From Acutalibacteraceae bacterium (GTDB lineage: Bacteria; Bacillota; Clostridia; Oscillospirales; Acutalibacteraceae): a stretch of 64,000 bases of DNA. Numbering within the stretch: position 1 is the first letter of the stretch; each line of letters opens with the position of its first letter. The position numbers were made by a program, and so were the translations under genes. The notes beneath the pieces are model-generated. The model made no database searches, had not been told where the DNA came from, and saw only the letters and a program-made list of their open reading frames with translations. Shown here piece after piece: positions 1 through 39,369 of this stretch. The stretch lies in NCBI GenBank assembly GCA_045541175.1, contig JAZQIP010000022.1, positions 14,129 to 78,128 on the forward strand, in the 5' to 3' direction.

Positions 1-670
1 CAACGACAACATATTCTTTATGTTCATTTTTTAATTTGGTACGGTGGATTTGTAGGGTCTTGTTTTTGAAATCTATATCTTCCCATTTTAAGCCTCCGAT
101 TTCAGAAGCACGCATCGAAAGCATACCAAGGTATGATTCCAATTCAAATTCATTACCCTTTAAAACACGAAAGATTTGTTTTATATACTCATCTGAATAA
201 ACTTTTTTAACCGTTTTTTTCATTTTAGGATATTTTACAGCCCATATAAATTGAGGGTGATATACTGATAATATAGTCTGCAAAAATCCGTAACGATTCT
301 TTATAGTTTTAGGAGAAAGAACAGAAGAGTAATTGTTTATAGAATTTTGAATTATAGGACATGTTAAAGTGTATAAAGGCTTATTGATTATATCCTGCAT
401 ATCATTATCAGAAATACGCACATATTCCTTAACTGTTGAGGGGGAGAGGTTGTTACGGTTTTTTTCTATATAAAATTTCATTGCTTCTTTTACAGTCATT
501 CGGGAACTGTCTGAACCAATCATTTTTATATAGTTTCGCCATTCTTCGGCAGATTTCTCGGCTTTGGCGGCAGTGCTTTCGGTGAAAGAGCGAATATATT
601 TCTCGCCGTCTATTGTTACGCTTGCCTGCACCCTCCAATTCCCTGAGGGTAATTTTTTCGCTTTAGCCAT
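1..670 (-). CDS. int: Tyrosine recombinase / phage integrase, N-terminal 223 codons (the remainder lies left of the window)
   Basis: Hand translation of the minus strand from the ATG at 670 stays open to position 1: MAKAKKLPSGNWRVQASVTIDGEKYIRSF...YLGMLSMRASEIGGLKWEDIDFKNKTLQIHRTK. It shows an N-terminal arm-binding-type KLPSGNWRVQ motif and the first catalytic Arg box (R-x-x-E...L-x-W-x-D-I-D). It is absent from the ORF track because no stop lies in the window. Confidence 0.85.
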   Translation of the reverse strand, partial: MAKAKKLPSGNWRVQASVTIDGEKYIRSFTESTAAKAEKSAEEWRNYIKMIGSDSSRMTVKEAMKFYIEKNRNNLSPSTVKEYVRISDNDMQDIINKPLYTLTCPIIQNSINNYSSVLSPKTIKNRYGFLQTILSVYHPQFIWAVKYPKMKKTVKKVYSDEYIKQIFRVLKGNEFELESYLGMLSMRASEIGGLKWEDIDFKNKTLQIHRTKLKNEHKEYVVV

Positions 671-732
671 AAAAATACCGTCCTTTCTTTGCAAAACGCT
701 TGCAGAATACGGACGGATATGTTAAAATATAA

Positions 733-825: not shown

Positions 826-1494
826 TTAGTGGTGGATTTCTCTTATGAGCATTTTGGGGATTCCGAGAACACGGCAGAGTTCCAAATCTTCGTTTTCTAT
901 GAGTTTTGGGGGAACGGTGGGATTTATTGCTATAAAGCGCATCCAGTTTTCACCTTGTTTATATTCAACTTTTTTGAGGGTGGCTAACTCATTATCATAT
1001 AAAACAACGCCGACCTGACCACTGTAATTAAGGGTTGTCTGCTTGAGTACAAGCACCTTGTCACCGTCCTGATAGTCGGGATACATACTGTCACCCTTTA
1101 CGCGTAAAACAAAAAACTCATCTTTCCGTCTGCCGCAGAGGTATTCGTCAGGAATGTCTACTGTATCGCCCTCCCAGTCCTCTATAGCGGGGTAATCATA
1201 TCCTGCGGCAACCTCGCCGATAACAGGGAATGTGGTGTAGTTCTGGGTGATGTTGGGTTGGGGCAGATTTGGGTTTTGATATTCTTCTATAAGGTCAGAT
1301 TTCTGAATACCAAAATAATTGGCTAACATTTCAATTTTATCGATACGAGGATATTTGTTGGCTGATAACCATTCAGATAATGTTGTGTATTTGAAATTCA
1401 ATGCTTGACATAATTGATATCTATCGATATTATGAATTTTCATATATCTTTTTAAGTTGTTTGCAAAAACTTGCTTATTTCCTAAATCGTTCAT
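826..1494 (-). CDS. CI/LexA-like phage repressor (XRE HTH plus S24 peptidase autocleavage domain)
   Basis: N-terminal HTH (NNLKRYMKIHNIDRYQLCQALNFKYTTLSEWLS). C-terminal S24 signature VKGDSMYPDYQDGDKVLV and a later ...TLKKV Lys region. Divergent from a Cro-like gene. Confidence 0.9.
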   Translation of the reverse strand: MNDLGNKQVFANNLKRYMKIHNIDRYQLCQALNFKYTTLSEWLSANKYPRIDKIEMLANYFGIQKSDLIEEYQNPNLPQPNITQNYTTFPVIGEVAAGYDYPAIEDWEGDTVDIPDEYLCGRRKDEFFVLRVKGDSMYPDYQDGDKVLVLKQTTLNYSGQVGVVLYDNELATLKKVEYKQGENWMRFIAINPTVPPKLIENEDLELCRVLGIPKMLIREIHH

Positions 1495-22509: not shown

Positions 22510-23076
22510 ATGAACAGTCCATATAACGGAAAATTCAGAGTATCACAGCAATTCAAAGGTTCTAGTCACGATGGGCTCGACCTTGTAGGAATAAGCAGTA
22601 AGGAAATCCATAGCACAGTAAACGGCAAGGTTGAGCGCGCAGGCTGGGAAAATCCTTTAAACCGTAAGCAGGGTTTTGGCAGATATGTCCGCATAAAGAA
22701 AAGCGGCAGTAGTGACCGCTATTATTTCGGGCATTTATCTGCTGTAAAAGTTAAAGTAGGACAAACTGTCAAGGTAGGCGATGTTATCGGTATTGAGGGC
22801 AGTACTGGAAGGTCTACAGGCTCGCATTGTCATTACTGCATCCGCGGTAACGCTTCCAAGTCAAAGATAAGGGACGTTTGTGAAATTAGCGGTATTCCCA
22901 ACAAAATCGGTACATATACCGACGAACCCAAGAAGACTACCAAAAAGTCCAACGAGGCAATTGCTAAAGAGGTAATAGCTGGTAAATGGGGTAACGGCTC
23001 TACAAGAAAAAAGAAGCTCACTGCCGCCGGTTACGATTATAAGGCGATTCAGAAGATTGTAAATAAGCTTGTATAA
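22510..23076 (+). CDS. Endolysin: M23 peptidase domain plus C-terminal CW_7 (Cpl-7-type) cell-wall-binding repeat
   Basis: M23 motifs HDGLDL...GHLS...GSTGRSTGSHCHY. The C-terminus AIAKEVIAGKWGNGSTRKKKLTAAGYDYKAIQKIVNKL matches the CW_7 repeat consensus. Confidence 0.85.
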   Translation: MNSPYNGKFRVSQQFKGSSHDGLDLVGISSKEIHSTVNGKVERAGWENPLNRKQGFGRYVRIKKSGSSDRYYFGHLSAVKVKVGQTVKVGDVIGIEGSTGRSTGSHCHYCIRGNASKSKIRDVCEISGIPNKIGTYTDEPKKTTKKSNEAIAKEVIAGKWGNGSTRKKKLTAAGYDYKAIQKIVNKLV

Positions 23077-23088
23077 GGAGGAGTTTTT

Positions 23089-23292: not shown

Positions 23293-23304
23293 TCAATAAA
23301 AATG

Positions 23305-23333: not shown

Positions 23334-23336
23334 AAT

Positions 23337-23370: not shown

Positions 23371-23402
23371 GTAAGCATAAACGATAAAAAGGAGCTTTGA
23401 TA

Positions 23403-25247
23403 ATGAACGATTTAAAAATCAAAACAGAGCCTAAATCTATTTTTGGAGAGTTTAAAACAGGCGATTCATATAAGCAAGGTTTAGGTAAACGCGGTATCAC
23501 TGAACAAGGAAAGGTGAATGAGCGTTTCTTCATTGGTGACCAATGGCACGGTGCGAAATGCGGAAACAATCGACCGCTTGTCCGCCGAAACATTATAAAG
23601 CGAATTGGCGAATTTAAGATGTCGTCTATAACCGCGGCACCGTTGGCGGTAAATTATACAGCTGACGGTATTCCTGATATTGGAATTGAGGAAGAAAAGC
23701 AGGCTATGACCGATAACCTTAATAAAGGTATTGCTCCCCAGGGCGAGGTAAGCAATGCGGAAATAGCAACAGTTATGCAGAGCCTTTCAGAATATTTCAA
23801 GATAACGGGAGAGCGCTTAAAGCTTGATACCCTTAAAGAACAGGCGCTTAGAAACTGCTATATCAGCGGTACAGGACTTTTATATACATATTGGGACAGC
23901 AAGATTGAAACAGGTCTTTATGCTGATACGGCTAAGCAGGTGCCAATAAACGGTGATATAAACTGCGAGGTATTAGAGGTTGAAAATGTTGTTTTCGGTG
24001 AGCCGAACAATGACAATATACAAAGCCAGCCTTATATCATAATAACCCGCAGAAGGCATATAGGAGAGGTTATAAGAGAGGCAAAAAGAAACCGCATACC
24101 TGCAGAGCAAATAGCGGATATTAAACCTGATAATGTGGACTATTATCAAAATTCGGGTGAGCAGGGTGAAAGCGAGCCTACAGACAGCAAGCGTGTTACC
24201 ACTATGACAAAGTTTTATAAAAAGTGGTCTGAAGATGGCAACGATTTCAAAGTTATGTGTACCGAGGTTACAGAAAAGGTTGTTATAAGAAAGCCTTTTG
24301 ATATTGGTATAAAGCATTACCCTATAGCTCTGATGCCTTGGGAGCGGAGAAGGTCCTGCATTTACGGTGAAAGCGAAATAACTCATTTAGTCCCAAATCA
24401 GATTGCTATAAACCGTTGCCTTACCGCCGCAGTTTGGGGAATGATTTCAACAGGTATGCCGATTATGGTTGTAAACGGTGATATTGTAACCGACAGGATA
24501 ACCAACGAACCGGGACAAATTATAAAGTGCTATGGCAGTAATGAGGATATGAAGGGGGCTATAAGCTATGTTCAGCCGCCAATATTCCAGTCACAGTATT
24601 TCAACAGCGTTAACGAAATGGCTACGAGCACACTTAACGATTCGGGCGCAAACGATGCGGCGCTTGGAAACCTTAGACCTGATAATGCCTCAGCAATTAT
24701 ACAAATGCGAGAGGCAGCAATGCAGCCTATGCAGATGTATATGAACCGCTTTTATGATTTTATCGAACAGCTTGCGCGTATATGGGCAGATTTTTGGGTG
24801 AATCTTTACGGTAAAAGAATGCTAAGGGCCGTTACCAAAGAGGGTACCAATTATATTCCCTTTGATGGAGAAAGATATAAGAACCTTGTTATTACAGCGA
24901 GAATTGATGTAGGAGCGGCTACGCTTTGGAGTGAGGCTGTAGTTATTTCTACCCTTGATAACCTCTTAGAAAGAAAAATGATAACCTTTGAGCAGTATCT
25001 AGACAGATTGCCTGCGGGAATTATTCCTGATGTTACAGGGCTTAAAGAGGATTTACAGATACAGTCACAGCAGGCCGAAACACAAGCTGCCCTTTCGGAT
25101 GAGGCAATTTTGCGAGATTTTGCACAGCAACAGCCCGAGCTTTATAAACAGTATGAGAGAATGCCTGCATCTGAGCAAATGGCGGTTATGGCTAAGATAA
25201 AAGGAGCCTATAACGGCGGTACTGCAGAGGGAGGAGCAATACAATGA
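23403..25247 (+). CDS. Portal protein
   Basis: 614 aa from the ATG 8 nt after AAAGGAG. N-terminal NERFFIGDQWHG portal motif with size and charge pattern typical of portals. Confidence 0.8.
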   Translation: MNDLKIKTEPKSIFGEFKTGDSYKQGLGKRGITEQGKVNERFFIGDQWHGAKCGNNRPLVRRNIIKRIGEFKMSSITAAPLAVNYTADGIPDIGIEEEKQAMTDNLNKGIAPQGEVSNAEIATVMQSLSEYFKITGERLKLDTLKEQALRNCYISGTGLLYTYWDSKIETGLYADTAKQVPINGDINCEVLEVENVVFGEPNNDNIQSQPYIIITRRRHIGEVIREAKRNRIPAEQIADIKPDNVDYYQNSGEQGESEPTDSKRVTTMTKFYKKWSEDGNDFKVMCTEVTEKVVIRKPFDIGIKHYPIALMPWERRRSCIYGESEITHLVPNQIAINRCLTAAVWGMISTGMPIMVVNGDIVTDRITNEPGQIIKCYGSNEDMKGAISYVQPPIFQSQYFNSVNEMATSTLNDSGANDAALGNLRPDNASAIIQMREAAMQPMQMYMNRFYDFIEQLARIWADFWVNLYGKRMLRAVTKEGTNYIPFDGERYKNLVITARIDVGAATLWSEAVVISTLDNLLERKMITFEQYLDRLPAGIIPDVTGLKEDLQIQSQQAETQAALSDEAILRDFAQQQPELYKQYERMPASEQMAVMAKIKGAYNGGTAEGGAIQ

Positions 25248-28816: not shown

Positions 28817-31800
28817 ATGGATAATAAAAGCATTTTATTTCAACCGGGACAGGTTTTAGGAGCAGTATCTAGCACAAACACAACGGTTAAGCAGAGTAGT
28901 CTGTTTCAGCCCGGTCAAGTTTTAGGAGAAGTATCAGCAGAAGAACAATTAAAATCACAACTCAACAGCAAAATAGTTCAGCCGATGGAATTGGTAAAGA
29001 ACCCTACCTCAGCGAATAAGAAACTTGCGGATGCGGTAAATCTAAAAACCACTATACCTTCGGCGAGTTATGATGAGGGTGTTGTTAAAGAACTTAAATT
29101 AAAAAATGAAATGGATGTTGCCGAAAAGGAATATAAAAATGCTCAGGATACGTTTAATATTAATCCTGTAATGAAGCAGTTGGAAAGTTTGGGTGTAAAT
29201 CATAAAAATGTAGGACCGTACGAAACTGCTTATGAGAATAAGAAAAAGGAATACAAGACATATGAAAAGGCAAGATATTATGCTGCAATGCCTAACGGTG
29301 AGGTGAAAACCACAAATCCTGAAAACAAACGCTATTTTTCTTTGGATTCGTCAATAGATTGGGAATATGAATACATAAACGATATCGGCGGTATACGCAA
29401 TACAATTCAGGCGCAGTCTGTTCGTTCCGGTGGCGGAAATGCTTACGAACTTTACGATTATATGACAGAAAGAGAAGTAGGTATTTATAATTATATATAT
29501 GCTGAAAATGGAAAAAAACAAGCGAAAGAATTTTTGGATTTTATTGAAGATGATTTAGAGACAAGGCTTTCTACAAAGAATGCCAAATCTGCTCAAAAGT
29601 TTGCGGATGAACATCCTTATGTGGCAGCAGCTCTTTCGATTCCTGCAAATGTATTTGCTGCGGGCGAACAAGTATCAAATATATTGGAATATACTTTTAC
29701 TGGCGACCTTAATCGAAACAATATGGCAGACACAGCTAATGTATATAGAAGTTATTTGCCTGAAAAGGTTAATTGGGAAATTGGAAATTGGGATGCTTTC
29801 GATTTTGTGTATAATACAACAATGTCGGGTATTGATTCGTTTGTTGTAGCTCCCGCAGGAACTGTTGGTGCGGTTGCTTTAGGTCTGTCAGCGGCGGCGA
29901 GTACAACCAACGATATACTCGATAGAGGCGGAAATAATGTGCAGGCTTTTTGGGGCGGTATAGCAGCAGGAACTTTTGAGGGATTTTTTGAAAAGTTTTC
30001 CTTAAGTCAACTTGATTCTATGCAAGAGGGAATGGTAAAAGGCTTCAAGGATTTTGCGAAGAATGTGGGAAAATCTATGCTTGTTAATGCCTCTGAGGAA
30101 ACAGCTACCGAAATTGCAAATATTTTGTATGATTATGTAGCTAACGGAGGTATTTCTCAGTATGCTTTGCTTGTTAAGGAATATACCGATAATGGTGATG
30201 ACGAAAAAACCGCAAAGAAAAAAGCAGCCCAAAAATTAGGACTGCAAATACTTGAAGCTGGGGCATCAGGTGCTCTTATGGGTTTGGGTTTTGCTTCTGT
30301 TGGTTCTGCTTCGGCTTATAGAAATTATAAAAAAGACACCTCTTTTGCAAAACAGGTTGATGAAGTTATAAATGGTACTCATAATCCGAGATATGATTTA
30401 TATGTTTCGGAAACACCTAAAATATTTACTGATTTAGGCTTTACTGATTCTCCACTATTAATGAGAAATGGTAAAGTAAATGAAATTCTAAAAAAACATT
30501 CTGAAATGTCAGTTGATACTATTAAACAGATTCCGCAGGCTATTCAAAATCCAATACTTATTTTAAAATCAAAAACAAATCCAACACAAAGCGTAGTGGC
30601 TATTACCGATGTTATAACAGAAAAGGGCAATATGATAGTTCCGGTATGGATAAATCAAGAGGGAAACTATATAGATGTTGATTTTGGAATAGATGTTGTT
30701 ACGGATACTAATTTTGTTGCTTCGGCTTATGGAAGAAATGTAAAAAGTCTTTTAGAATATGCGAATGAAAATAACGGATTTCTATATCAAAGTCAGAATA
30801 TAGAAAAAGTCAGACAACTTATAGCAAGAAATGGGCTGCAATTGCCCACACCACTAAAGTTATCTGACTCTGACATTAATATATCACAAAATGATAACGA
30901 TGTCAATAATATTATATCCACCGAACCCTCAAATAATTCCCAAAATCCCGATTCGGGAGCGGGAGATGTTGCACGTGTAATCGGTGATAGGGTATCTATT
31001 TTAAGAAATAATACCGACCGCAGGCATACTACTTTAAAAGAACAACAGTATATTCAAAAAATATGTGATGCTTTAGGTGTAGAAGTTGTATTTGAGGATA
31101 TGGCTGAATATATGAAAGCAAACGGCTTTGATACAAGTAGCGGGATTATAGAGGGATATATTGATAAAAGCAATGTTATACATATCGGTTGGACTGTAAG
31201 GAATCCTGTACAATTTGTTTTGAAGCACGAGCTTACACATTTCTTAGAGAATAATAAAGCGAAATACAACGATTTTGCAAATTCAATTATGGATAACGAA
31301 TTATTTAAGGAATGGGTAAAATCTAAGGGATATGCATCTACAAGTGAATATAATGCTACTATAGTGCAACATTATTCTCAACTGGATAAAAAATTCGGCG
31401 AACACGAAGCTAATTTAGAAATGGTTGCTAATTTTGTTGGTGAAAATTTATTCGGTAACGAAAACGAGCTCAAAAGACTTTTAGAAAGTCTTAATCCTAA
31501 TCAACGGTCGAAATTTGTTCAATTCATTCACGACTTTCTTGCTTTCCTAAAAGAAAAACTCGGCGGACAAGCAGAGGTTTCCGCGGAGATAAAAGTGCTT
31601 GAAAACAATTTTATTAAGTTACTTAAAGAGGTATCATCAGAGCAAAAAAACACCGCCGAGAATAGCGGTGAATATGTATATAGTTTTTCTGCGGAAAGAC
31701 AAAGAGAGTCAGACACCCCACGGACTTTACATGCCGTAGTGAACGAAAGGGAAAACCCTAACGCCAATGTCGAACTCTCTAACAGTAGAGTAGCACAAAA

Positions 31801-34800
31801 GTCACCTACTGTCAAGAACAATTCTATGCAGGAAAGTGAAAATTATTCCTCGAACAACGATAAATTCAGCTTTGCACCTGTGGATGATAAGTCACTAGTT
31901 GCCAAAGCTGAGGATATGGAGAGTAACAATGCAAGCCGAAAAGAGATATGGCAAAAGTTAGGTATTATAAGAGATGCATCGGGTGAGTGGATTTATGAAA
32001 TATCTGACGATGAAATGAAATTTTCTCCTTTGGGTAAAGTGAAATATCTGGAAAGTCCTGAATATAAGGAATATCTTGAGCTTAGAAAATTAAAAAGGCG
32101 AACCAAAGAAAAGACTAAAAGATTTTTTGATTTGGGAATGAAGTACGGTACAGGCGCTTTGCCTCACGGCAAGCTGAAAGATTTCCTGATTCATGATAAA
32201 CTCTTTGAAAAATATCCAAATTTGAAAGAAACAAATTTCGAATTTGGAATGTTGGGAAAAGGAACTTTTGGCAACTATAATCCCGATACAAATACTATAA
32301 CTTTGAACGCTGATTTTTTAGAGGAATCTACAGCAAACGATAAGAGCGAAAGGGATTTCGAGGATTTTGCTAACGAGTTGAAAATGAAACAAACGCTTAT
32401 GCATGAAGTCCAACACGCTATGCAGGAATATGATAATCGAGAACGTGGCTCTAATGAATTGTATTGGCAACATCGCGCTATGATGGGTGATATTCCGCTA
32501 AGTTCAAACAGCAAACCGCTTACTCCTCGAAAAGCATACGAAAATACGGCCGGTGAAATTGAAGCTAAACAAACAGAAAACAGAACTTTTTTGAACGAAG
32601 AAAGCCGTAGAGATAAAATGCCGAATCTCGGTTGGGATAAAGCTGTGTTTACCAGCAAATCTTATCAATTAGCAAACAAATCTTCTGAGGCTATCGATGC
32701 GGAATATAGCTCAGCCGTTGAGAAAGGTGATACACGGGCAATTCAGAACATGGTTGATAATGCCGCTATGTCATCAGGGTATACAGAAAGATTGTATCAT
32801 CAAACAAATGCTGATTTCACAGAGTTTAATACTGAAAATCAAAAAGCAGGCAAATATGATACAGAATTGCCTACAGGTACATTTTTGAAACCTTCCGATG
32901 AAGATATTGGACTTTCGGGTAAAAAGCAAATGGAACTTTATGCGCAGATTAAAAAGCCTCTGCAATTTAAGGACAGAGATGATGCACGACAGTTCTGGAG
33001 CGAAAATATAGACGGATATGCCGAGGCAATAAAGGTTGTTAGTGATATAGATTCAGAGTACCGTCAAAAGTATAGCGAAGCTGAGGGTGATGTCAGAAGG
33101 TATATGATAAATTGGCGACATTCTAATCCCGATGCATCGAGGCAGGATATTTATAGTGATACCGAGTTCCAACGCTTACTTGGCAGACAACAGCAAGTGC
33201 TTGAAGAATGGGAAAACAAATCCAACGAAGCAAGTCTTGAGGCGAAGCGGCTCATCGATGATTTTATTGCTAAAAACGATTATGACGGTGTTATTATTGA
33301 GAATGACCAGGACGGAGATAACATAAGTACAAAGTCATACATCGTATTCAATTCTAATCAGCTTAAAGATGCTGCTCCTGTCACTTATGATGATGCAGGC
33401 AATGTTATTCCGTTATCAGCAAGGTTTGACACTGAACAAGGGGATATAAGATATTCTTTCACAGAATATACAAGTGCTGAAAGTTTGCTTGAACAGTATG
33501 AAAACGGCAAGATTACAAGGCAAGAGTATTTAGATATGATTAAAAAAGAAAAGCCGCTAAATCCTGTAGAAATAGCAAATTTAAAAGAGGAAGATGCTAA
33601 CACAACTCCAACGTTGAAAAAGCGTAACGGTACAAATGTCGGGGATAAACAAAGTGAGACCTATGAAAGTCTACTTGGCTCAAGTATCTTTGACGAGAGA
33701 TTTAAAGAGGAGATAGCCGACGATACATTCATAAAGAATTATCAGTCGATTACCAACAAGGAAACTCTTGCAAAAGCGGCTAAGGAGCTTGATGAGGGTG
33801 GTCTCAGTTATGTTCTAAAATGGAATAACACAGACCCCGAACACGCAAGCCTAATTGATATAGCGGTGGGCTTCATTCTTATGGATAGATATCAGCGTGT
33901 TGGTGATTACGAAAGTGCTGCTTCTGTAGCAGAAAAGGTAAGAATGTTTGGTACTTCAAGCGGTCAACAGGTGCAGATTTTCTCAATCCTCGGAAGACTT
34001 GACCCGAATTCAATGCAGGCTTATGCGCAGCAGACATTGGACAAAGCTTTTGAAAAATTGGCAGATATTAAAACAAAACAATGGATTGATAAAAACCAGT
34101 CTAAATTTAAGCTCACAGAAGAAGATATTGAATTTATTCGTCGTCACACTTTGCAAGCTGCTTTGTTTGATGATAATACTAGACCTAAGGCGATAGCTCT
34201 TGGTAAAATATGTGCAAGGATTCAGGATAAGATACCGCCTGAGGCAGGACAATCCATCAGAGCTTTGCAAAGGTCCAATATGTTATTGAATTTAAAAACA
34301 ATACTCCGCAACATAAATGGTAATGCGGGTATGACACCGCTATTTATTGCATCTGACTTTTTTGGAACTCTCATTGATAAAGGATTGTCTAAAAAGACAG
34401 AGATACGAACTACGGGTATTTATGGTCACCCATTTACAAAGAACGGTAGAGAGCGTTTGGCGAAAAATATGGAAAGTTTCGGGAAAGGTGTATATGAATC
34501 TTGGGATGATTTCAAAAGGGGGATACGTACAAAACAAGAAGATTTAAACCGTTTTGAACTTAATTCTTCATCGGGTAAGAATTTTAACGAGCATCACACT
34601 GGGAAGTTGGCTAAGCAATTTGATGCTATTTCAAAATTCCTTAATAAGATGGATAACTTCACCTCTTTCTGTTTAGAAGTAGGAGACAGACCTTTCTTTG
34701 AAATGTGGATGACAAATTCATTAAATAACCAATTGAGGCTTAATAAGTTAGAAATACCTACACCTGAAATGTTGGAAGTTGCCAAGCAGGAAGCATTACA

Positions 34801-36190
34801 AAGAACTTGGCAGGATGATAGCAGGTTTACAAGGTCAGCGAGCAAAATCAAATCGGCACTTAATGATATGGTGCATATACCAGGAACCTCTTACGGTCTT
34901 GGGGATGGGGTTATGAAGTTTATAAAAACTCCTTCCAATATTGCCAGAGCGATTGGAAGTTTTTCGCCGGCAGGTTTTGTATCCGCCGGAGTGAACGCAA
35001 AAAAACTAAAGAATGCTATAGATAAAGATAAATTTACACCTCAACTACAAAAAGAATATGTAAGAAGTCTGAGCAATGCTATAACAGGAACTTTGATTTA
35101 TGTTCTTGTTGCGGTAGGAGCAGGTTTAGGAGTTGTAAAGTTATCAGGAGACGATGACGACGATAAGGATGCGTCGAATTATGAAAAGTACATTATGGGT
35201 ATTCCTCCGTATTCAATAGAATTTTTCGGAGTGAACATAACTTATGATTGGATGCAACCTTTCGGTTCGGTTTTGGCCATTGTTGCAGATTTTATGGAAA
35301 GTCAAGAAGAAAATCCTGACGGTGATGTAGCAAATGCAATATTAGAGGCTATAAAGGCAGGGGGAAAGGCATTTACAAAACAATCTTTTTTACAAAGCTT
35401 ATACGATGTGTTCTCGTCAGAGGATATAGTAGAAGCGTTAACATCTGTAGCTTTGGCAGAGCCGGCAGCGTTCGTTCCTCAACGTTGGTCTCAAATGGCA
35501 AGTTTTCTTGATGAGTACAGTAGGACATCTTATGATAATACAAATAGTTTTAAATCAGCCATAAATAAGGTTATTGCTAAAATCCCCGGACTGAGAACTA
35601 CGCTACCTAAAAGGGTTAATGTTTTAGGCGAAGATGTTAAAAACACACAGTATCTTGATGCTTGGGAGGCTTTTGCATCACCATGGAACACTTACCCTAA
35701 AAGTTCAAGCGAGGTTATAGGTGAAATTTATAGCCTTTATAAATCAACAGGGGAAAATTCAGTTATTCCAAGAACTGCACCGAATTATTTTACAGTTAAA
35801 GGAACTAAAGTTGCATTTACTCCGGAAGAAAAGGCGGAGTTCCAACGTAATATTGGAAAGCGTAGCGCTGAAATGTTGGGACAACTTTTTGACAGTAAAG
35901 AATACACCAACCTTTCTGATGAAGAAAAGGTTACTGTAATAAGTAAAATATATCAATTTGCCTATGATAAAGCAAAATCGGAGCGCAAATATGATTATGA
36001 CACCTTGTCGGCTATGGTCGGCGAAAAGAAAAACGGTGACCCGATACTTACAAAGTCTGTTTACGGTAGGTTATCAGAAGAGGATAAAGAGGAACTCGCA
36101 CAGGAATATTTCTTGTCTAAAACAGAAATGAGGTATATAAACAATTATGATAGGTTGATACAGTATTACATTAAGCAGGCTAAGGAATAA
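28817..36190 (+). CDS. Giant (2457 aa) multi-domain polyvalent-type virion protein with two zincin HExxH motifs, an ART-PolyVal-like domain and a C-terminal TM segment
   Basis: HELTH at nt 31226-31240. HEVQH at 32402-32416, followed by NTAGEIEAKQTENR. LYHQTNADFTEF (His at 32798) ... YIVFNSNQLKDAAPVTYDDAGNVIPLSARFDTEQGDIRYS. A KKHSEMSVDTIKQIPQAIQNPILILKS segment. TM helix ITGTLIYVLVAVGAGLGVV. N-terminal duplicated LFQPGQVLG(A/E)VS. Confidence 0.85.
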   Translation: MDNKSILFQPGQVLGAVSSTNTTVKQSSLFQPGQVLGEVSAEEQLKSQLNSKIVQPMELVKNPTSANKKLADAVNLKTTIPSASYDEGVVKELKLKNEMDVAEKEYKNAQDTFNINPVMKQLESLGVNHKNVGPYETAYENKKKEYKTYEKARYYAAMPNGEVKTTNPENKRYFSLDSSIDWEYEYINDIGGIRNTIQAQSVRSGGGNAYELYDYMTEREVGIYNYIYAENGKKQAKEFLDFIEDDLETRLSTKNAKSAQKFADEHPYVAAALSIPANVFAAGEQVSNILEYTFTGDLNRNNMADTANVYRSYLPEKVNWEIGNWDAFDFVYNTTMSGIDSFVVAPAGTVGAVALGLSAAASTTNDILDRGGNNVQAFWGGIAAGTFEGFFEKFSLSQLDSMQEGMVKGFKDFAKNVGKSMLVNASEETATEIANILYDYVANGGISQYALLVKEYTDNGDDEKTAKKKAAQKLGLQILEAGASGALMGLGFASVGSASAYRNYKKDTSFAKQVDEVINGTHNPRYDLYVSETPKIFTDLGFTDSPLLMRNGKVNEILKKHSEMSVDTIKQIPQAIQNPILILKSKTNPTQSVVAITDVITEKGNMIVPVWINQEGNYIDVDFGIDVVTDTNFVASAYGRNVKSLLEYANENNGFLYQSQNIEKVRQLIARNGLQLPTPLKLSDSDINISQNDNDVNNIISTEPSNNSQNPDSGAGDVARVIGDRVSILRNNTDRRHTTLKEQQYIQKICDALGVEVVFEDMAEYMKANGFDTSSGIIEGYIDKSNVIHIGWTVRNPVQFVLKHELTHFLENNKAKYNDFANSIMDNELFKEWVKSKGYASTSEYNATIVQHYSQLDKKFGEHEANLEMVANFVGENLFGNENELKRLLESLNPNQRSKFVQFIHDFLAFLKEKLGGQAEVSAEIKVLENNFIKLLKEVSSEQKNTAENSGEYVYSFSAERQRESDTPRTLHAVVNERENPNANVELSNSRVAQKSPTVKNNSMQESENYSSNNDKFSFAPVDDKSLVAKAEDMESNNASRKEIWQKLGIIRDASGEWIYEISDDEMKFSPLGKVKYLESPEYKEYLELRKLKRRTKEKTKRFFDLGMKYGTGALPHGKLKDFLIHDKLFEKYPNLKETNFEFGMLGKGTFGNYNPDTNTITLNADFLEESTANDKSERDFEDFANELKMKQTLMHEVQHAMQEYDNRERGSNELYWQHRAMMGDIPLSSNSKPLTPRKAYENTAGEIEAKQTENRTFLNEESRRDKMPNLGWDKAVFTSKSYQLANKSSEAIDAEYSSAVEKGDTRAIQNMVDNAAMSSGYTERLYHQTNADFTEFNTENQKAGKYDTELPTGTFLKPSDEDIGLSGKKQMELYAQIKKPLQFKDRDDARQFWSENIDGYAEAIKVVSDIDSEYRQKYSEAEGDVRRYMINWRHSNPDASRQDIYSDTEFQRLLGRQQQVLEEWENKSNEASLEAKRLIDDFIAKNDYDGVIIENDQDGDNISTKSYIVFNSNQLKDAAPVTYDDAGNVIPLSARFDTEQGDIRYSFTEYTSAESLLEQYENGKITRQEYLDMIKKEKPLNPVEIANLKEEDANTTPTLKKRNGTNVGDKQSETYESLLGSSIFDERFKEEIADDTFIKNYQSITNKETLAKAAKELDEGGLSYVLKWNNTDPEHASLIDIAVGFILMDRYQRVGDYESAASVAEKVRMFGTSSGQQVQIFSILGRLDPNSMQAYAQQTLDKAFEKLADIKTKQWIDKNQSKFKLTEEDIEFIRRHTLQAALFDDNTRPKAIALGKICARIQDKIPPEAGQSIRALQRSNMLLNLKTILRNINGNAGMTPLFIASDFFGTLIDKGLSKKTEIRTTGIYGHPFTKNGRERLAKNMESFGKGVYESWDDFKRGIRTKQEDLNRFELNSSSGKNFNEHHTGKLAKQFDAISKFLNKMDNFTSFCLEVGDRPFFEMWMTNSLNNQLRLNKLEIPTPEMLEVAKQEALQRTWQDDSRFTRSASKIKSALNDMVHIPGTSYGLGDGVMKFIKTPSNIARAIGSFSPAGFVSAGVNAKKLKNAIDKDKFTPQLQKEYVRSLSNAITGTLIYVLVAVGAGLGVVKLSGDDDDDKDASNYEKYIMGIPPYSIEFFGVNITYDWMQPFGSVLAIVADFMESQEENPDGDVANAILEAIKAGGKAFTKQSFLQSLYDVFSSEDIVEALTSVALAEPAAFVPQRWSQMASFLDEYSRTSYDNTNSFKSAINKVIAKIPGLRTTLPKRVNVLGEDVKNTQYLDAWEAFASPWNTYPKSSSEVIGEIYSLYKSTGENSVIPRTAPNYFTVKGTKVAFTPEEKAEFQRNIGKRSAEMLGQLFDSKEYTNLSDEEKVTVISKIYQFAYDKAKSERKYDYDTLSAMVGEKKNGDPILTKSVYGRLSEEDKEELAQEYFLSKTEMRYINNYDRLIQYYIKQAKE

Positions 36191-36222
36191 AAAAAGAAAA
36201 GGGACCGCGTTATTGCGGTCCC
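36191..36222 (-). terminator. Intrinsic terminator for the minus-strand 158-aa gene; the hairpin also closes the late operon
   Basis: GGGACCGC (36201-36208), loop GTTATT, GCGGTCCC (36215-22). The U-run exists only on the minus strand (plus-strand AAAAAAGAAAA at 36190-36200). The hairpin overlaps the last codons of 36210-36686. Confidence 0.65.
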
Positions 36223-36686
36223 AAAAATGTTAATATTAATGCTATTAATAAAATAATAATATGAGGTATGAGTGATTTAAAATGGAATGCATTGTCCTTT
36301 TTATAAAAACCATAACCAAACATCTTATCTAATTTTTCGAGTATAAATAAATCAAAAATTACATATAAAAGCGAAAAAACACAAAAACAAGCGTAAAATG
36401 TGGCAAACCAAAGAAGGAATCTCTCAAAGAAAGATAAACCAATAAATCCGTTTTTTAGCTCATAACTGTTTATTGATGTAAAAAAAGCTATTATGTATGC
36501 TGTTATTCCGCCTGGCCATGCTGGAAGTCTGCGAACACTTAATTCGTTTTTATCGTTTATTATATTACGCTTTTCAAGTTCCTTGAGATTTTCTTTGAGC
36601 AATCTGTTTTCTTCACGCAGATAGTCTAATTCATTCATATTTTTTTTAGCAAAATTACTCCATTGATTAACATCCCTCATAAACAA
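36210..36686 (-). CDS. Multi-pass membrane protein with an N-terminal cytoplasmic coiled coil (158 aa), unknown function
   Basis: RBS GGAGGGG. NELDYLREENRLLKENLKELEKRN, then 3-4 hydrophobic helices (GGITAYIIAFFTSI, FLLWFATFYACFCVFSLLYVIFDLFIL, IPHIIILLIALILTFLG). Own promoter-like TTTACA, 17 nt, TATTTT upstream. Confidence 0.6.
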   Translation of the reverse strand: MFMRDVNQWSNFAKKNMNELDYLREENRLLKENLKELEKRNIINDKNELSVRRLPAWPGGITAYIIAFFTSINSYELKNGFIGLSFFERFLLWFATFYACFCVFSLLYVIFDLFILEKLDKMFGYGFYKKDNAFHFKSLIPHIIILLIALILTFLGPQ

Positions 36687-36730
36687 CCCCTCCTATACCA
36701 CTTAAAATATCACATCTTCCAAAATTTGTA

Positions 36731-36767
36731 AAGGAAAATAAAGAAAGCCACCCAAATAGGATGGCTT
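36731..36767 (-). terminator. Intrinsic terminator after the 359-aa gene
   Basis: On the minus strand AAGCCATCC, loop TATTT, GGGTGGCTT (one mismatch), followed by TCTTTATTTTCC. Confidence 0.55.
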
Positions 36768-36876
36768 CTATTTGACAATCTGTTATTTTAGACGAAAGGC
36801 TATGCCCACTGGTCCTCCATTAATAATTTACGCATAATAAACACTCCTTTCTGTATTCATTATATAACATTAGTAA

Positions 36877-37956
36877 TTATTTTGCAACATTTTTTTCTAA
36901 ATATACGCAAACGCCATCTAGAGGGAAAATCCAATCATCAAACTTTATAGATACTCGTTTTCTATCGTCTGTGTGATTAGGAGAACTTTTTGCATCATCA
37001 ATGAAACCAAATGCTACAGGATTTATAGCATAATTATCATTTCTTACAACAAAGTTAAAATCGAAATTTTTGCATGGATAAGGCATTCTACAAGAATAAA
37101 CCATATCGTTAAGCGGACATCTGGTTATATATTCCATTTCAATTTTAATAGATTTTTTACTCGAAAAATTTAATGATTTATCCAGCAAAAACTTAATATT
37201 ATCAATATATCCTCTTTTTTTATCTAATGGGTCTGGTGATTCAGAATTGTTTTGCTTTATGCGTTTTGAATCGACGGCTTCACCATTAATTGTCAACTTT
37301 TTTATTTCAGCAGGGATATAATCCGAGGATTTTGGGGTTGTCAATGCAAGTAATATATAGTTATCAATATTAATCGATTTGCAAAGAGATTTTATTTCAA
37401 CACATTTTACAATGGTTTTTTCAATAAATTGCTCATTAATATCGCAAATAATATTCAAGTAATATTTTTCATAAAAAAGATCATGCCCAAAAAGAGGTTT
37501 ATTTAATTTGTTTTTAACCGCTACATACATTTCACTTTTTTCACGACATTTGTTGAATTCAAGCTGAGTTTCCAATGCTGTTAATACTTTCAACTTTTCT
37601 TCATCATCTAAAATTTTCAAAAAATTGTCACTTGTTAAAAAATCATCAACAAAAATTTGTTCAACGATTTTATTTGAGTTTCTTTTTTCAATTAAAATAG
37701 AAGAAAGTAAAGCACTTCCTGCTACTGAAAAAAAGACCAATATAATTTCTGAATAAGTTTGCATATTATTATGCTTTTTTGTTAGTTCTGTTACGGTTTC
37801 TGAATTATTATCTAAATTAGAAACCTGGAAGCTTAGTTCTGAAGTTCTTAAAGTGGCATATGAGTAAATAACTCCAAGGACAATAGTAAGTAATATTAGT
37901 GGTATTATAGCACCTTTTTTAAAAAAGAATTTTTGCAATATTTTCTTATTTTTCAT
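36877..37956 (-). CDS. 2-TM membrane protein with a ~260-aa C-terminal soluble domain (359 aa), unknown function
   Basis: Start MKNKKIL at 37956 after GGAGGAGAG. TM1 AIIPLILLTIVLGVIYSY and TM2 IILVFFSVAGSALLSSILI. The remainder is mixed alpha/beta with no motif I recognise. Extremely AT-rich. Confidence 0.65.
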   Translation of the reverse strand: MKNKKILQKFFFKKGAIIPLILLTIVLGVIYSYATLRTSELSFQVSNLDNNSETVTELTKKHNNMQTYSEIILVFFSVAGSALLSSILIEKRNSNKIVEQIFVDDFLTSDNFLKILDDEEKLKVLTALETQLEFNKCREKSEMYVAVKNKLNKPLFGHDLFYEKYYLNIICDINEQFIEKTIVKCVEIKSLCKSINIDNYILLALTTPKSSDYIPAEIKKLTINGEAVDSKRIKQNNSESPDPLDKKRGYIDNIKFLLDKSLNFSSKKSIKIEMEYITRCPLNDMVYSCRMPYPCKNFDFNFVVRNDNYAINPVAFGFIDDAKSSPNHTDDRKRVSIKFDDWIFPLDGVCVYLEKNVAK

Positions 37957-38097
37957 CTTCTCTCCTCCAAAACTATTATACAATAGTCTGGACAAATTGC
38001 AACATTATTTTACCAAATGATGGTATTTTTTTAAATAGTCATTCACCGACAAATGTACATATTATAATGATGTAATCAAGAGATTTTTTGATTTATA

Positions 38098-38358
38098 TTA
38101 CTTTAATTCCCCGTCAAACAATCTCCCGGACATTTCTTGCCAACTTATAAGTTCTAGGGGGTTCACATTTAAAGCTTCAGCGAAGATATTTATTTTTGAA
38201 TATGGAGGGTGATTAATTCCTGATTCTATTTTGCTAATGGTTGAACCGTACTTATAACCGAGTTTTTTAGCAAGCTCCTGTTGAGTCATTCCTAATTCGA
38301 TTCTTCTGCGTTTTATAGCCTCGCGAAATAGCTCGATATTTTCGTGTAGTATTTCCAT
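38098..38358 (-). CDS. XRE-family HTH regulator (86 aa)
   Basis: RRRIELGMTQQELAKKLGYKYGSTISKIESGINHP is a canonical XRE HTH. RBS GAGGTG. Confidence 0.85.
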   Translation of the reverse strand: MEILHENIELFREAIKRRRIELGMTQQELAKKLGYKYGSTISKIESGINHPPYSKINIFAEALNVNPLELISWQEMSGRLFDGELK

Positions 38359-38387
38359 ATTTTACACCTCGACTAATAACTATATTG

Positions 38388-38431
38388 CGTGTGAATTTTC
38401 GTGTGAATTTTTTATAATTTCGTGTGAATTT
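38388..38431. repeat. Three direct copies of CGTGTGAATTT overlapping the promoter of the XRE gene
   Basis: Copies at 38388-38398, 38400-38410 and 38421-38431, with start-to-start spacing of 12 and 21 bp. On the minus strand, the TTCACA of copy 2 lies 17 nt upstream of TATAGT. Confidence 0.8.
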
Positions 38432-38481: not shown

Positions 38482-38517
38482 TTAAATAAAGGGAAAAGAC
38501 CGCATTTAAGCGGTCTT
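38482..38517 (-). terminator. Intrinsic terminator of ssrA
   Basis: AAGACCGC (38496-38503), loop ATTTAA, GCGGTCTT (38510-17). On the minus strand it is followed by TTCCCTTTATTT. Confidence 0.7.
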
Positions 38518-38522: not shown

Positions 38523-38870
38523 TGGTGGAGATGGCGGGAATCGAACCCGCGTCCGAAAATCTATCCGTACCGGCGTCTCCGAGCGCAGACACCTGTTTAA
38601 ATTCCCTTATACCGCCGTCAAGTGTCCGACTGCGATATTCGGTAGCTCCCAATGCGTGACAGCCGCAGGAGCAAGCAACTGTTCACGTTCACCACTAAAA
38701 TGACACCCGAGCCTGAGCCGTGGTACTCTCAGGTCAGATGAGCCGCCTTAATTAGGCAGCTAAAGCAACTTTATTGTTGTTAGTTAATTTTTTATGCGGC
38801 TTTTAAAGCGGTTCCGCACCGCTGCTCGCTTCCGGTATTTCAAAATCCCCGTCGAAACCTTTACATCCCC
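38523..38870 (-). ncRNA. ssrA: tmRNA (SsrA), 348 nt
   Basis: 5' GGGGATGTAAAGGTTTCGACGGGG and 3' GGACGCGGGTTCGATTCCCGCCATCTCCACCA. The acceptor stem has the G3-U pair required for Ala charging. The tag reading frame ends ...AAC AAC AAT AAA GTT GCT TTA GCT GCC TAA (..NNNKVALAA). smpB is adjacent. Confidence 0.95.
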
Positions 38871-38910: not shown

Positions 38911-39369
38911 TTATCTATTTTGTTCTTTCATTGCTCTTTCAATTGCTCTGTCAGCATCTCGCTTTGCGGCGGTATCACGCTTATCGTGAAGCTTTTTACC
39001 CTTGCAAAGCCCAAGCTGAACTTTAACAAGCGAGCCCTTGAAATAAACAGAGAGCGGAACAAGTGCCAAGCCTTCCTGCTTAACAGCACCGAAAAGACGC
39101 ATTATTTCACGTTTGTGCATTAACAGTCTTCTATTACGGGCAGGGGGCTTATTAAAAATATTCCCATGCTCATAAGGGCTTATGTGCATTTGCTTTATTA
39201 TCATTTCGCCCTCATCAACACTGCACCAGGCATCTTTAAGATTAACTCCGCCTTGACGGATGGATTTAACCTCTGTTCCTGAAAGCTCGATTCCTGCTTC
39301 AAAGCTCTCAAGCACAAAATATTCGTGATACGCTTTTTTATTAGTTGCAATAGTTTTAGTATTCTCCAC
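38911..39369 (-). CDS. smpB: SsrA-binding protein SmpB
   Basis: NKKAYHEYFVLESFEAGIELSGTEVKSIR...LLMHKREI...GLALVPLSVYFKGSLVKVQLGLCKGKKLHDKR. Confidence 0.95.
   Translation of the reverse strand: MENTKTIATNKKAYHEYFVLESFEAGIELSGTEVKSIRQGGVNLKDAWCSVDEGEMIIKQMHISPYEHGNIFNKPPARNRRLLMHKREIMRLFGAVKQEGLALVPLSVYFKGSLVKVQLGLCKGKKLHDKRDTAAKRDADRAIERAMKEQNR

What the first reader, a model, noticed from the sequence alone, without database searches (positions are those of the whole stretch)
36210..38431. AT-rich three-gene minus-strand cassette (XRE regulator, 2-TM 359-aa protein, multi-TM 158-aa protein) between the phage late operon and ssrA
Directly after the 2457-aa virion gene, the coding strand flips and composition drops sharply. 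A hand count of one 60-nt line at 37381 gives 14 G+C, against 24 at 24001 in the structural region.

The three genes are separate transcription units:
- an 86-aa XRE HTH gene with a triple-repeat operator in its promoter
- a 359-aa protein with two N-terminal TM helices and a ~260-aa soluble domain with no motif I recognise
- a 158-aa protein with a cytoplasmic coiled coil and 3-4 TM helices, with its own promoter-like element and terminator

The att-proximal end of temperate phages is the classical location for lysogen-expressed morons such as superinfection exclusion, abortive infection or toxins. Membrane proteins paired with a dedicated regulator fit that logic. I cannot match either membrane protein to Kiwa, a CBASS 2TM effector, Sie/Ltp or any Abi family by eye, so this may be an undescribed exclusion/defence module.
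Basis: partly seen in the sequence, partly recalled or inferred. Interest (0 to 1): 0.72.

Follow-up and report, generated by a model that had tools for sequence, protein, structure and literature searches.

The report
Prophage-end membrane gene, unnamed family
The stretch is the accessory end of a prophage sitting next to the tmRNA gene, and one of its three genes belongs to an unnamed family of membrane proteins that recurs at the ends of unrelated prophages, which makes it a reasonable but untested candidate for a phage-defence gene.

Summary
Three minus-strand genes lie between a prophage's last late gene and ssrA, in the lowest-GC stretch of the window. They encode an 86-aa XRE regulator with a triple repeat in its promoter, a 359-aa 2-TM protein and a 156/158-aa multi-TM protein.

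The reading as one co-functioning "regulator + two membrane proteins" module is not supported.
- The 156-aa protein has no homolog in 5.8 billion proteins.
- No XRE gene is consistently linked to homologs of the 359-aa gene.
- The XRE operator repeat is absent from the other two promoters.

The real finding is the 359-aa gene alone. It belongs to a family of about 400 clusters at 50% identity, with no Pfam, NCBIfam, PADLOC or PHROG model.
- Architecture: an N-in/C-in 2-TM hairpin, whose second TM helix is the most conserved segment, plus a cytoplasmic beta-sandwich of about 200 aa.
- Close homologs sit as single AT-rich genes at prophage ends: after the lysis genes, between integrase and repressor, or beside tRNA genes.
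- Two family members lie near TIR-type defence genes.
- Distant members head a five-gene operon that ends in an OmpA/MotB-like gene.

A lysogen-expressed membrane-acting defence role is the best guess, at roughly 45%. It is untested.

The parts
1..690 (-). N-terminal part of a tyrosine integrase gene that runs off the left end of the window (left end of the prophage)
   Evidence: Open frame seen in the six-frame translation. Pfam Phage_integrase E=2.4e-6, above the gathering score.
826..1494 (-). cI-like repressor (HTH + Peptidase_S24)
   Evidence: Pfam Peptidase_S24 1.7e-18 and HTH_26 2.4e-9.
22510..23076 (+). Phage endolysin (Peptidase_M23 + CW_7), in the middle of the late operon. It shows that the cassette is not needed to explain lysis.
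28817..36190 (+). 2457-aa polyvalent virion protein (MuF_C, ART-PolyVal, LPD23), the last late gene
36201..36222 (-). GC-rich hairpin plus T-run. It is the terminator of the 156-aa gene, overlaps that gene's last codons, and lies 11 nt after the 2457-aa gene's stop.
   Evidence: sequence.
36210..36680 (-). Orphan 156-aa membrane protein (the ORF extends to TTG 36686). It has an N-terminal helix at 2-49 and hydrophobic helices at 59-77, 84-121 and 130-153. GC is 28.9%.
   Evidence: (the only hit is itself).
36704..36732 (-). Promoter-like site (TTTACA-17-TATTTT with TG) upstream of the 156-aa gene
   Evidence: 9/12, a consensus match only.
36744..36768 (-). Terminator-like hairpin plus T-run downstream of the 359-aa gene
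36877..37956 (-). 359-aa member of an unnamed family. TM1 is at 16-34 and TM2 at 71-89, with a helical linker at about 95-155 and a cytoplasmic beta-sandwich at 160-355. GC is 27.4%.
37975..38002 (-). Near-consensus sigma-70-type promoter (TTGCAA-16-TATAAT), 18 nt upstream of the 359-aa start codon
38098..38358 (-). 86-aa XRE/HTH_3 regulator. GC is 36.8%, close to the phage backbone.
38386..38431 (.). Three direct copies of TTCGTGTGAATTT overlapping the XRE promoter (-35 at 38407, -10 at 38379). Probably an autoregulatory operator.
   Evidence: There are no copies upstream of the other two genes.
38496..38517 (-). Terminator hairpin directly after the tmRNA 3' end
38523..38870 (-). tmRNA (ssrA). 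Its 3' end faces the cassette, so it is the presumed attachment site.
   Evidence: Rfam RF00023, 160.5 bits, full length.
38911..39369 (-). smpB (host)
   Evidence: Pfam SmpB 1.7e-61.

Best explanation
The stretch 36.2-38.5 kb is the right-hand, att-proximal accessory arm of a prophage of about 39 kb, which carries a tyrosine integrase and lies against the 3' end of ssrA. In the circular phage the order would be cI - int - attP - XRE - 359 - 156, all on one strand. That makes the cassette an extension of the lysogeny module.

It is not one system. It consists of:
- (i) a small phage-backbone XRE repressor that most likely autoregulates through three direct repeats in its own promoter;
- (ii) a separately acquired, very AT-rich single-gene moron encoding the 359-aa protein;
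- (iii) a second AT-rich moron encoding an orphan 156-aa membrane protein of unknown role.

The 359-aa protein belongs to an unnamed family. It has a hairpin of two TM helices with both ends in the cytoplasm. The second helix carries a conserved Ser/Thr/Gly stripe and is the most conserved part of the family. A helical linker and a cytoplasmic beta-sandwich of about 200 aa follow.

Inferred mechanism, not shown:
- The gene is transcribed in the lysogen from its own near-consensus promoter.
- The cytoplasmic domain recognises a component of an infecting phage.
- The signal passes to the TM2 hairpin, which oligomerises. It then either depolarises the membrane (abortive infection) or blocks genome entry at the inner face of the membrane (exclusion).

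This protects the lysogen, or the population, against other phages.
For: Prophage frame:
- Integrase N-terminus and S24 repressor at the left end.
- TerL, portal and an M23/CW_7 lysin in the late operon.
- tmRNA and smpB on the right.
- No internal att repeat separates the cassette from the phage.

Not a module:
- The 156-aa protein finds only itself.
- tblastn of the 156-aa and XRE proteins against 16 homolog loci gives nothing linked.
- The operator repeat occurs only upstream of the XRE gene.
- GC is 36.8% for XRE, against 27-29% for the two membrane genes.

Family:
- 21 close homologs at 35-60% identity.
- 399 clusters at 50% identity with E<1e-3, nearly all 320-390 aa.
- 129 of 135 members have exactly two TM segments. 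The N-tail has a median of 5 K/R in 15 residues, and the loop between the helices is acidic.
- TM2 has the lowest column entropy (2.21 bits). Position 77 is S/T in 134 of 135 members. The external loop has the highest entropy (3.38 bits, 27% gaps).
- The AF2 model gives pLDDT of about 90 for residues 160-355.

Position of homologs:
- Directly after holin and lysin genes in L002, L007/8, L009-12, L015, L020 and L029.
- Between integrase and S24 repressor in L004 and L006.
- Within 1.6 kb of a tRNA or tmRNA gene in 8 of about 16 distinct loci.
- As a one-gene, 44% GC islet between tRNA-Lys and tRNA-Gly in a genome of 60-70% GC (L021).
- Lower in GC than its flanks in 17 of 17 loci.
- The same allele follows Amidase_3, Amidase_2 or GH25 lysins.

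Defence neighbours:
- Thoeris ThsA/ThsB within about 5 kb in L001.
- A ThsB_TIR + SLATT_1 pair about 5 kb away in L026.

Precedents for membrane-anchored prophage defence genes in exactly these slots:
- PdpSau, always downstream of the amidase gene (PMC10127798).
- Lactococcal Sie genes, between integrase and repressor (PMC7693887).
Against: - There are no functional data of any kind.
- No member matches any PADLOC, PHROG, Pfam or NCBIfam model.
- Only two contexts have recognisable defence genes nearby.
- Distant members (24-25% identity) head a five-gene operon with an OmpA/MotB-like protein, flanked by ordinary chromosomal genes. The family may therefore have an envelope-related role unrelated to phages.
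- The fold matches are generic beta-sandwiches (M1 aminopeptidase N-domain, DUF3857, VIT). TM-scores are 0.27-0.32 over the whole query.
- A strong promoter match (at least 10 of 12) is found upstream in only 6 of 16 loci.
- The left att site lies outside the window, so integration at ssrA is inferred, not shown.
- The copies in L015 and L025 are frameshifted.
Confidence: 0.45

Rival explanations
1. The three genes form one defence or exclusion module. The XRE protein is a dedicated regulator, and the two membrane proteins act together as sensor and effector.
For: The three genes are adjacent on one strand. Two of the three are membrane proteins. No terminator lies between the XRE gene and the 359-aa gene.
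Against: The 156-aa protein has no homolog anywhere. None of 16 homolog loci carries a 156-aa relative or a linked XRE gene. The operator repeat is absent from the other two promoters. A terminator and a separate promoter lie between the 359-aa and 156-aa genes. GC differs: XRE 36.8% against 27-29%.
Confidence: 0.08
2. The 359-aa protein serves the phage's own lytic cycle, for example as a holin partner, antiholin or lysis-timing factor. It is not a lysogen-expressed gene.
For: In at least six phage types it lies about 200 nt downstream of the holin and lysin genes, on the same strand. It has a TM hairpin with a conserved polar face, as holins do.
Against: In this window it is on the opposite strand from the late operon and 14 kb from the M23/CW_7 lysin. 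In L004 and L006 it sits between integrase and repressor. In L021, L016, L014 and L003 it persists beside tRNA genes without any phage. It matches no holin family. It is always much lower in GC than the lysis genes.
Confidence: 0.1
3. It is a lysogenic-conversion or envelope factor unrelated to phage defence. A membrane-anchored cytoplasmic beta-sandwich protein would alter host envelope physiology, or take part in an envelope-spanning complex, as the five-gene OmpA/MotB-like operon of distant members suggests.
For: Distant members head a conserved operon that ends in a protein with a peptidoglycan-binding OmpA domain. No defence model matches. Prophage-end morons also include many non-defence fitness genes (general knowledge).
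Against: Close homologs are always stand-alone, without the other four operon genes. The five-gene operon is itself AT-rich relative to its flanks, so it also looks acquired. Two members lie next to TIR-type defence genes.
Confidence: 0.25
4. The XRE gene and the 359-aa gene form a toxin-antitoxin-like pair, with the XRE protein as antitoxin and the membrane protein as toxin.
For: The XRE protein gives weak matches to HipB/MqsA-type antitoxin models. The genes are adjacent, and no terminator lies between them.
Against: All those matches are far below the curated cut-offs. A 141-nt gap with its own promoter separates the genes. Homologs of the 359-aa gene are never paired with a small XRE gene.
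Confidence: 0.04

Closest known systems
PdpSau of Staphylococcus aureus prophages (and the lactococcal AbiP it resembles)
   Same: It is a single prophage accessory gene that always lies just downstream of the amidase gene of the lysis module. It is membrane-anchored at the N-terminus with a cytoplasmic C-terminal domain. It causes abortive infection with loss of membrane potential (PMC10127798).
   Different: PdpSau has one TM helix and an OB-fold-like domain. The family here has a 2-TM hairpin and a beta-sandwich. There is no homology: hhalign probability is 0.2%.
Lactococcal Sie proteins (Sie2009 type)
   Same: [quoted passage not shown] Homologs in L004 and L006 occupy that slot, and so does this gene in the circular map.
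   Different: Sie2009-type proteins are described as small proteins with a hydrophobic amino terminus (PMC7693887). Here the bulk of a 359-aa protein is cytoplasmic, and the external loop is the least conserved part. No PHROG or PADLOC match was found.
CBASS 2-TM effectors (Cap15 / S-2TMbeta, SLATT)
   Same: They have an N-terminal 2-TM hairpin and a C-terminal beta-rich cytoplasmic ligand-binding domain. Ligand binding drives oligomerisation and membrane disruption (my knowledge of Duncan-Lowey et al. 2021, not re-read here).
   Different: No cyclase or other signal-producing gene lies in the window or next to the close homologs. Only 1 of 135 members gives a weak SLATT_5 hit, at chance level. 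Fold search does not return Cap15.
N-terminal beta-domain of M1 aminopeptidases / DUF3857 / VIT domain
   Same: These are the best Foldseek matches to the C-terminal domain: E of 4e-7 to 1e-6 in the PDB, and giant-virus inter-alpha-trypsin-inhibitor-like proteins in BFVD.
   Different: The resemblance is in fold only. TM-score is 0.27-0.32 on the whole query, identity is 9-15%, and there is no catalytic domain. A profile of the C-terminal domain finds no PDB sequence.

Membership tests
XRE / HTH_3 transcriptional regulators (86-aa gene) | Match to the HTH_3 profile above the curated threshold | tested here: met
   PF01381, E=2e-13, 50.6 bits against a cut-off of 23. phrog_8, phrog_4 and phrog_3 regulator/repressor families also match.
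Known anti-phage defence proteins (PADLOC-DB v2: Kiwa, CBASS effectors, Abi families, Zorya and others) | Sequence match of the 359-aa or 156-aa protein to any model | tested here: not met
   Both proteins match 0 families. Among 135 family members there are only single hits at chance level.
CBASS S-2TMbeta / SLATT effectors | Two N-terminal TM helices | tested here: met
   129 of 135 members have exactly two TM segments.
CBASS S-2TMbeta / SLATT effectors | Match to a SLATT or S_2TMBeta profile | tested here: not met
   1 of 135 members hits SLATT_5, at E=0.0023. None hits S_2TMBeta.
CBASS S-2TMbeta / SLATT effectors | Adjacent CD-NTase/SMODS or other signal-generating gene | tested here: not met
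   The neighbours of the close homologs are holin, lysin, integrase, repressor or host genes.
Sie2009-type superinfection exclusion | Location in the lysogeny module, expressed from the prophage | tested here: inconclusive
   The location is met in L004 and L006, and in the circular map of this phage. Expression cannot be tested here.
Sie2009-type superinfection exclusion | Blocks DNA injection of the incoming phage | not testable with these tools
   This needs adsorption and DNA-entry assays.
PdpSau / AbiP | Sequence or profile homology | tested here: not met
   hhalign of the family profile against PdpSau (phage 53 ORF016) gives probability 0.2%.
Holins / lysis proteins | Match to a holin family, or membership of the late lysis cassette | tested here: not met
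   No holin Pfam or PHROG hit was found. In this window the gene is on the opposite strand and 14 kb from the lysin.
Type II toxin-antitoxin (XRE antitoxin + toxin) | Conserved gene pair | tested here: not met
   No XRE gene is linked to homologs. The antitoxin model hits are far below their cut-offs.
Zorya (only for the distant five-gene operon) | ZorA and ZorB profile matches | tested here: not met
   The only match is a weak ZorB1 hit (3e-5) confined to the OmpA domain of gene 5. No ZorA hit was found.

The most novel reading that the evidence does not exclude
The 359-aa family would be a previously undescribed, widespread single-protein anti-phage defence. Prophages would carry it as a mobile att-proximal moron. 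A cytoplasmic VIT/M1-N-like beta-sandwich would sense infection and gate a pore formed by the conserved polar face of TM2. The same sensor-pore protein would have been recruited as the first component of a five-gene, Zorya-like envelope system with a MotB/OmpA anchor.
Probability: 0.3. Interest if true: 0.65.

Novelty: new variant of a known kind. Interest (0 to 1): 0.45.

Why it matters
If the 359-aa protein is a defence gene, it would add a new single-gene, membrane-acting family to the catalogue. It comes from gut Clostridia (Oscillospirales), whose phage-host biology is almost unexplored and poorly covered by current defence-finder models.

The family carries clear, testable predictions:
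- its position next to attP;
- a conserved Ser/Thr stripe in TM2;
- an invariant D284/R290/C295/G317-F318/W342/G348 set in the cytoplasmic domain.

The link to a five-gene OmpA/MotB-type operon gives a second route to its mechanism.

If it is not a defence gene, it is one more unexplained prophage moron.

Tried and rejected
- **Family libraries:** Pfam, PHROGs, PADLOC and NCBIfam on the three proteins and on 135 family members. Nothing matched except HTH_3 for the XRE protein.
- **PDB by sequence:** the full-length profile and a profile of the C-terminal domain alone. The first gave only TM noise and the second nothing.
- **Foldseek:** the PDB and BFVD returned only generic beta-sandwich matches. 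The single-sequence model of the 156-aa protein (pTM 0.31) had no BFVD match.
- **GenBank phages and PLSDB plasmids:** no match by DNA or protein for the cassette or the 359-aa protein. The C-terminus of the 2457-aa protein was searched against the phages only, also without a match.
- **IMG/VR:** five scans found only L016 and L024-L026.
- **Empty site and att core:** an internal tmRNA 29-mer found nothing in JGI metagenomes. No repeat of the tmRNA 3' end exists in the window. Exact-protein look-ups for this contig failed. The left att site therefore stays unknown.
- **156-aa protein against the five-gene operon:** no similarity to genes 3 or 4.
- **Rfam:** at a permissive threshold on the cassette, only the tmRNA end matched.
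- **Literature:** two searches found no description of this family.
Full report
**1. What is in the sequence**

The window holds a temperate prophage on the plus strand.
- An integrase N-terminus runs off the left end on the minus strand, starting at about 690. Pfam Phage_integrase gives E=2.4e-6.
- It is followed by an HTH + Peptidase_S24 repressor at 826-1494 and a cro-like gene at 1639-1842.
- The late operon holds a large terminase at 15777-17102, an M23+CW_7 endolysin at 22510-23076 and a portal at 23397-25247.
- The last late gene is a 2457-aa polyvalent protein (MuF_C, ART-PolyVal, LPD23) ending at 36190.

After 36190 the coding strand flips. Three minus-strand ORFs follow:
- 36210-36686, most likely starting at ATG 36680, which gives 156 aa;
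- 36877-37956, 359 aa;
- 38098-38358, 86 aa.

Rfam places a full-length tmRNA at 38523-38870 on the minus strand at 160 bits. ARAGORN misses it. smpB follows.

The cassette is the lowest-GC stretch of its length in the window, at 29.2% against a mean of 38.8% (sd 2.8).

**2. Regulatory signals**

- The XRE gene has a -35/-10 match (TTCACA-17-TATAGT). It overlaps three direct copies of TTCGTGTGAATTT at 38386-38431.
- That repeat does not occur upstream of the other two genes.
- The 359-aa gene has a near-consensus TTGCAA-16-TATAAT, 18 nt before its start codon and just ahead of a GGAGGAG ribosome-binding site. A hairpin plus T-run lies about 110 nt after its stop.
- The 156-aa gene has a weaker promoter-like site. 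Its terminator hairpin overlaps its last codons.
- No terminator lies between the XRE gene and the 359-aa gene, so read-through is possible.
- These are consensus matches, not evidence of function.

**3. Is it a three-gene module? No**

- The 156-aa protein finds only itself among 5.8 billion proteins.
- tblastn of it and of the XRE protein against 16 loci that carry homologs of the 359-aa gene finds no 156-aa relative. It finds only one weak HTH match, 0.8 kb away in L011, beyond the tRNA-Pro gene. The same gene in L020 also lies beyond the tRNA-Pro.
- The XRE gene has phage-like GC (36.8%; phage backbone 38.0%). The two membrane genes are 27.4% and 28.9%.

The simplest reading is a backbone regulator plus two independently acquired AT-rich genes.

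**4. The 359-aa family**

- The first search gave 21 homologs of 35-60% identity, none with a name (one, P0018, carries a precomputed Pfam hit, PF01984).
- A profile search of 1.84 billion representatives gave 399 clusters at E<1e-3 and 294 at E<1e-10. Nearly all are 320-390 aa.
- None of 135 diverse members matches a Pfam or PADLOC model beyond chance. Four diverse members, including the window's protein, match no NCBIfam model anywhere near its cut-off.
- The window's protein also has no PHROG match, no match in GenBank phages or PLSDB plasmids, and no PDB relative by sequence.

*Topology*
- 129 of 135 members have exactly two hydrophobic segments.
- The N-tail has a median of 5 Lys/Arg in 15 residues. 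The loop of about 22 residues between the helices is net acidic.
- Both termini, and so the whole C-terminal part of about 270 aa, are therefore cytoplasmic.

*Model*
- The AlphaFold model has mean pLDDT 75.6.
- It shows a long helical hairpin, a helical linker, and a confidently predicted beta-rich domain at 160-355 with pLDDT of about 90.

*Fold matches*
- Foldseek's best PDB hits are the N-terminal beta-domain of M1 aminopeptidases, DUF3857 (3kd4) and the inter-alpha-inhibitor heavy chain. E-values are 4e-7 to 1e-6 and TM-scores 0.27-0.32 on the whole query.
- In BFVD the best hits are giant-virus proteins, one of them named as inter-alpha-trypsin-inhibitor family.
- This is a generic binding-type beta-sandwich and does not give a function.

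*Conservation*
- TM2 is the most conserved segment (2.21 bits mean entropy). It has S/T at position 77 in 134 of 135 members and a small/hydroxyl stripe at 77-81-85 and 82-86.
- TM1 is less conserved (2.84 bits), and the external loop is the least conserved part (3.38 bits, 27% gaps).
- A hairpin that was only an anchor would not be expected to be the best-conserved part. This points to a function within the membrane, either oligomerisation or pore lining. That step is my inference.
- In the cytoplasmic domain, K180, Y250, D284, R290, C295, G317, F318, W342 and G348 are at least 90% conserved.

**5. Where homologs sit**

| Position | Loci | Detail |
|---|---|---|
| About 200 nt after the lysis genes, as the last phage gene | L002 | after an XhlA-like region |
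| | L007, L008 | after amidase + r1t holin |
| | L009-L012 | after SPP1 holin + Amidase_3 or Amidase_2 |
| | L020 | after SPP1 holin + GH25 lysin, then tRNA-Pro and host genes |
| | L015 | after a GH25 lysin; the copy is frameshifted |
| | L029 | after an M23 lysin + r1t holin, then host genes |
| Between integrase and S24 repressor | L004, L006 | in L006 the order is tRNA-Lys, int, gene |
| Beside tRNA genes, with no phage visible | L003/L013 | tRNA-Leu |
| | L014 | tRNA-Leu |
| | L016 | Arg-His-Gln tRNA array |
| | L021 | see below |
| Near defence genes | L001 | island with integrase, AAA_14 and Thoeris ThsA/ThsB |
| | L026 (L025 has the same ORF layout) | ThsB_TIR + SLATT_1 pair about 5 kb away in L026 |

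- In L021 a single gene of 44% GC lies between tRNA-Lys and tRNA-Gly, in a genome of 60-70% GC.
- A tRNA or tmRNA gene lies within 1.6 kb in 8 of about 16 distinct loci. From my rough knowledge of tRNA gene density, a few percent would be expected for a random gene.
- The gene is lower in GC than its ±6 kb flanks in 17 of 17 loci, by 2-18 points.
- One allele (97-99% nucleotide identity) follows three different lysin catalytic domains.
- A promoter match of at least 10 of 12 is present upstream in 6 of 16 loci, against 11% of shuffles.
- The named carriers are Acutalibacteraceae, Ruminococcaceae and Vermiculatibacterium. The host of this window was not identified.

Joining the ends of this prophage gives cI - int - attP - XRE - 359 - 156 on one strand. 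All these positions are therefore the same place on a circular phage map: the accessory region flanking attP.

**6. Distant members**

- P0169 and P0160 (24-25% identity) are the first gene of a conserved five-gene operon.
- The gene order is: the 2-TM/beta-sandwich protein, a 268-aa coiled-coil protein, a 134-aa protein, a 342-aa protein with 4 TM helices and a coiled coil, and a 411-aa protein.
- The last protein has an OmpA/MotB-type peptidoglycan-binding domain. Pfam OmpA gives 8.7e-11. A weak ZorB1 match is confined to that domain.
- The operon is AT-rich relative to its flanks, 26-34% against 40%.
- This shows that the family can work within an envelope-associated complex. It is also the main reason for caution about a pure defence reading.

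**7. Mechanism**

*Shown*
- The architecture, topology and conservation pattern of the family.
- The recurrent att-proximal stand-alone position of the gene.
- Its AT-richness.
- Its independence from the other two genes of the cassette.

*Inferred*
- The gene is expressed in the lysogen.
- The cytoplasmic beta-sandwich recognises a phage component.
- TM2-mediated oligomerisation then depolarises the membrane, or blocks DNA entry from the inner face.

*Precedents*
- PdpSau of S. aureus prophages is a membrane-anchored protein with a cytoplasmic domain. Its gene is always just downstream of the amidase gene, and it causes abortive infection with membrane depolarisation (PMC10127798).
- The family here is not homologous to PdpSau: hhalign probability is 0.2%.
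- It resembles CBASS Cap15-type effectors in plan (2-TM hairpin plus beta-rich sensor), but it lacks a partner cyclase and any profile match.

I put the defence reading at about 0.45. The rivals are:
- a non-defence conversion or envelope role, 0.25;
- a role in the phage's own lysis, 0.1;
- a toxin-antitoxin pair, about 0.04.

The 156-aa protein has a helix at 2-49 and three hydrophobic helices. The model is weak (pTM 0.31) and has no fold match. Its role stays unknown. Its long open frame in 29% GC DNA, its AGGAGG site and its terminator argue that it is a real gene.

**8. Verdict**

- The interesting object is the 359-aa family. It is a new variant of a known kind, namely membrane-anchored accessory genes at prophage ends.
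- Interest is moderate. It is a well-defined, testable candidate with a sizeable unnamed family behind it, but it has no functional evidence and belongs to a category with many such candidates.

Noticed in passing
L017 8001-12744; L018 6966-11709; L019 4648-9375: Distant members of the 359-aa family head a conserved, AT-rich five-gene operon. The genes encode a 2-TM/beta-sandwich protein, a 268-aa coiled-coil protein, a 134-aa protein, a 342-aa protein with 4 TM helices and a coiled coil, and a 411-aa protein with an OmpA/MotB-like domain. Genes 1-4 have no Pfam, PADLOC or NCBIfam names. This may be an undescribed envelope-associated, perhaps Zorya-like, system.
   Followed up: partly
window 38523-38870: ARAGORN reports no tmRNA in the window, while Rfam finds a full-length tmRNA at 160 bits ending in CCA. 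The tool disagreement is unexplained.
   Followed up: partly
window 22199-25247: The late operon has an unusual order. An M23+CW_7 endolysin (22510-23076), preceded by a 102-aa ORF, sits between the terminase/structural genes and the portal gene (23397-25247), not at the end of the operon.
   Followed up: no
window 28817-36190: The 2457-aa last late gene is a polyvalent protein with MuF_C, an ADP-ribosyltransferase (ART-PolyVal) domain and LPD23. It has no PHROG match and no relative in GenBank phages or IMG/VR for its C-terminal 516 aa.
   Followed up: partly
window 5198-5956: A 252-aa early-region ORF has a long Gly-Ser/Gly-Tyr/Gly-Asp repeat at its N-terminus (GSGSGDGDGSGSGSGSGYGYGYGYG...). 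The low-complexity run also opens frames on the opposite strand.
   Followed up: no
L021 7120-9246: In a genome of 60-70% GC, a single family gene of 44% GC sits alone between a tRNA-Arg/His/Gln/Lys array and a tRNA-Gly gene, with no phage genes around it. The IMG/VR 'viral' contig L016 shows the same Arg-His-Gln tRNA array just upstream of its copy.
   Followed up: partly
L026 9624-14844 and L025 9107-14498: In two large IMG/VR contigs the family gene is followed by an unannotated protein of 1319-1376 aa. In L026 a ThsB_TIR + SLATT_1/DUF4231 gene pair comes next. L025 has ORFs of matching size, order and strand, which were not scanned against Pfam. The family gene is frameshifted in L025.
   Followed up: partly
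L009 7635-9424 vs L010 4395-6184 vs L020 7530-9448: A block of 97-99% identity covers the lysin's C-terminal PG_binding_1 part, the intergenic region and the family gene. It is shared by prophages whose lysin catalytic domains differ (Amidase_3, Amidase_2, GH25) and whose other genes are 82-92% identical. This mosaic exchange has its breakpoint inside the lysin gene.
   Followed up: partly
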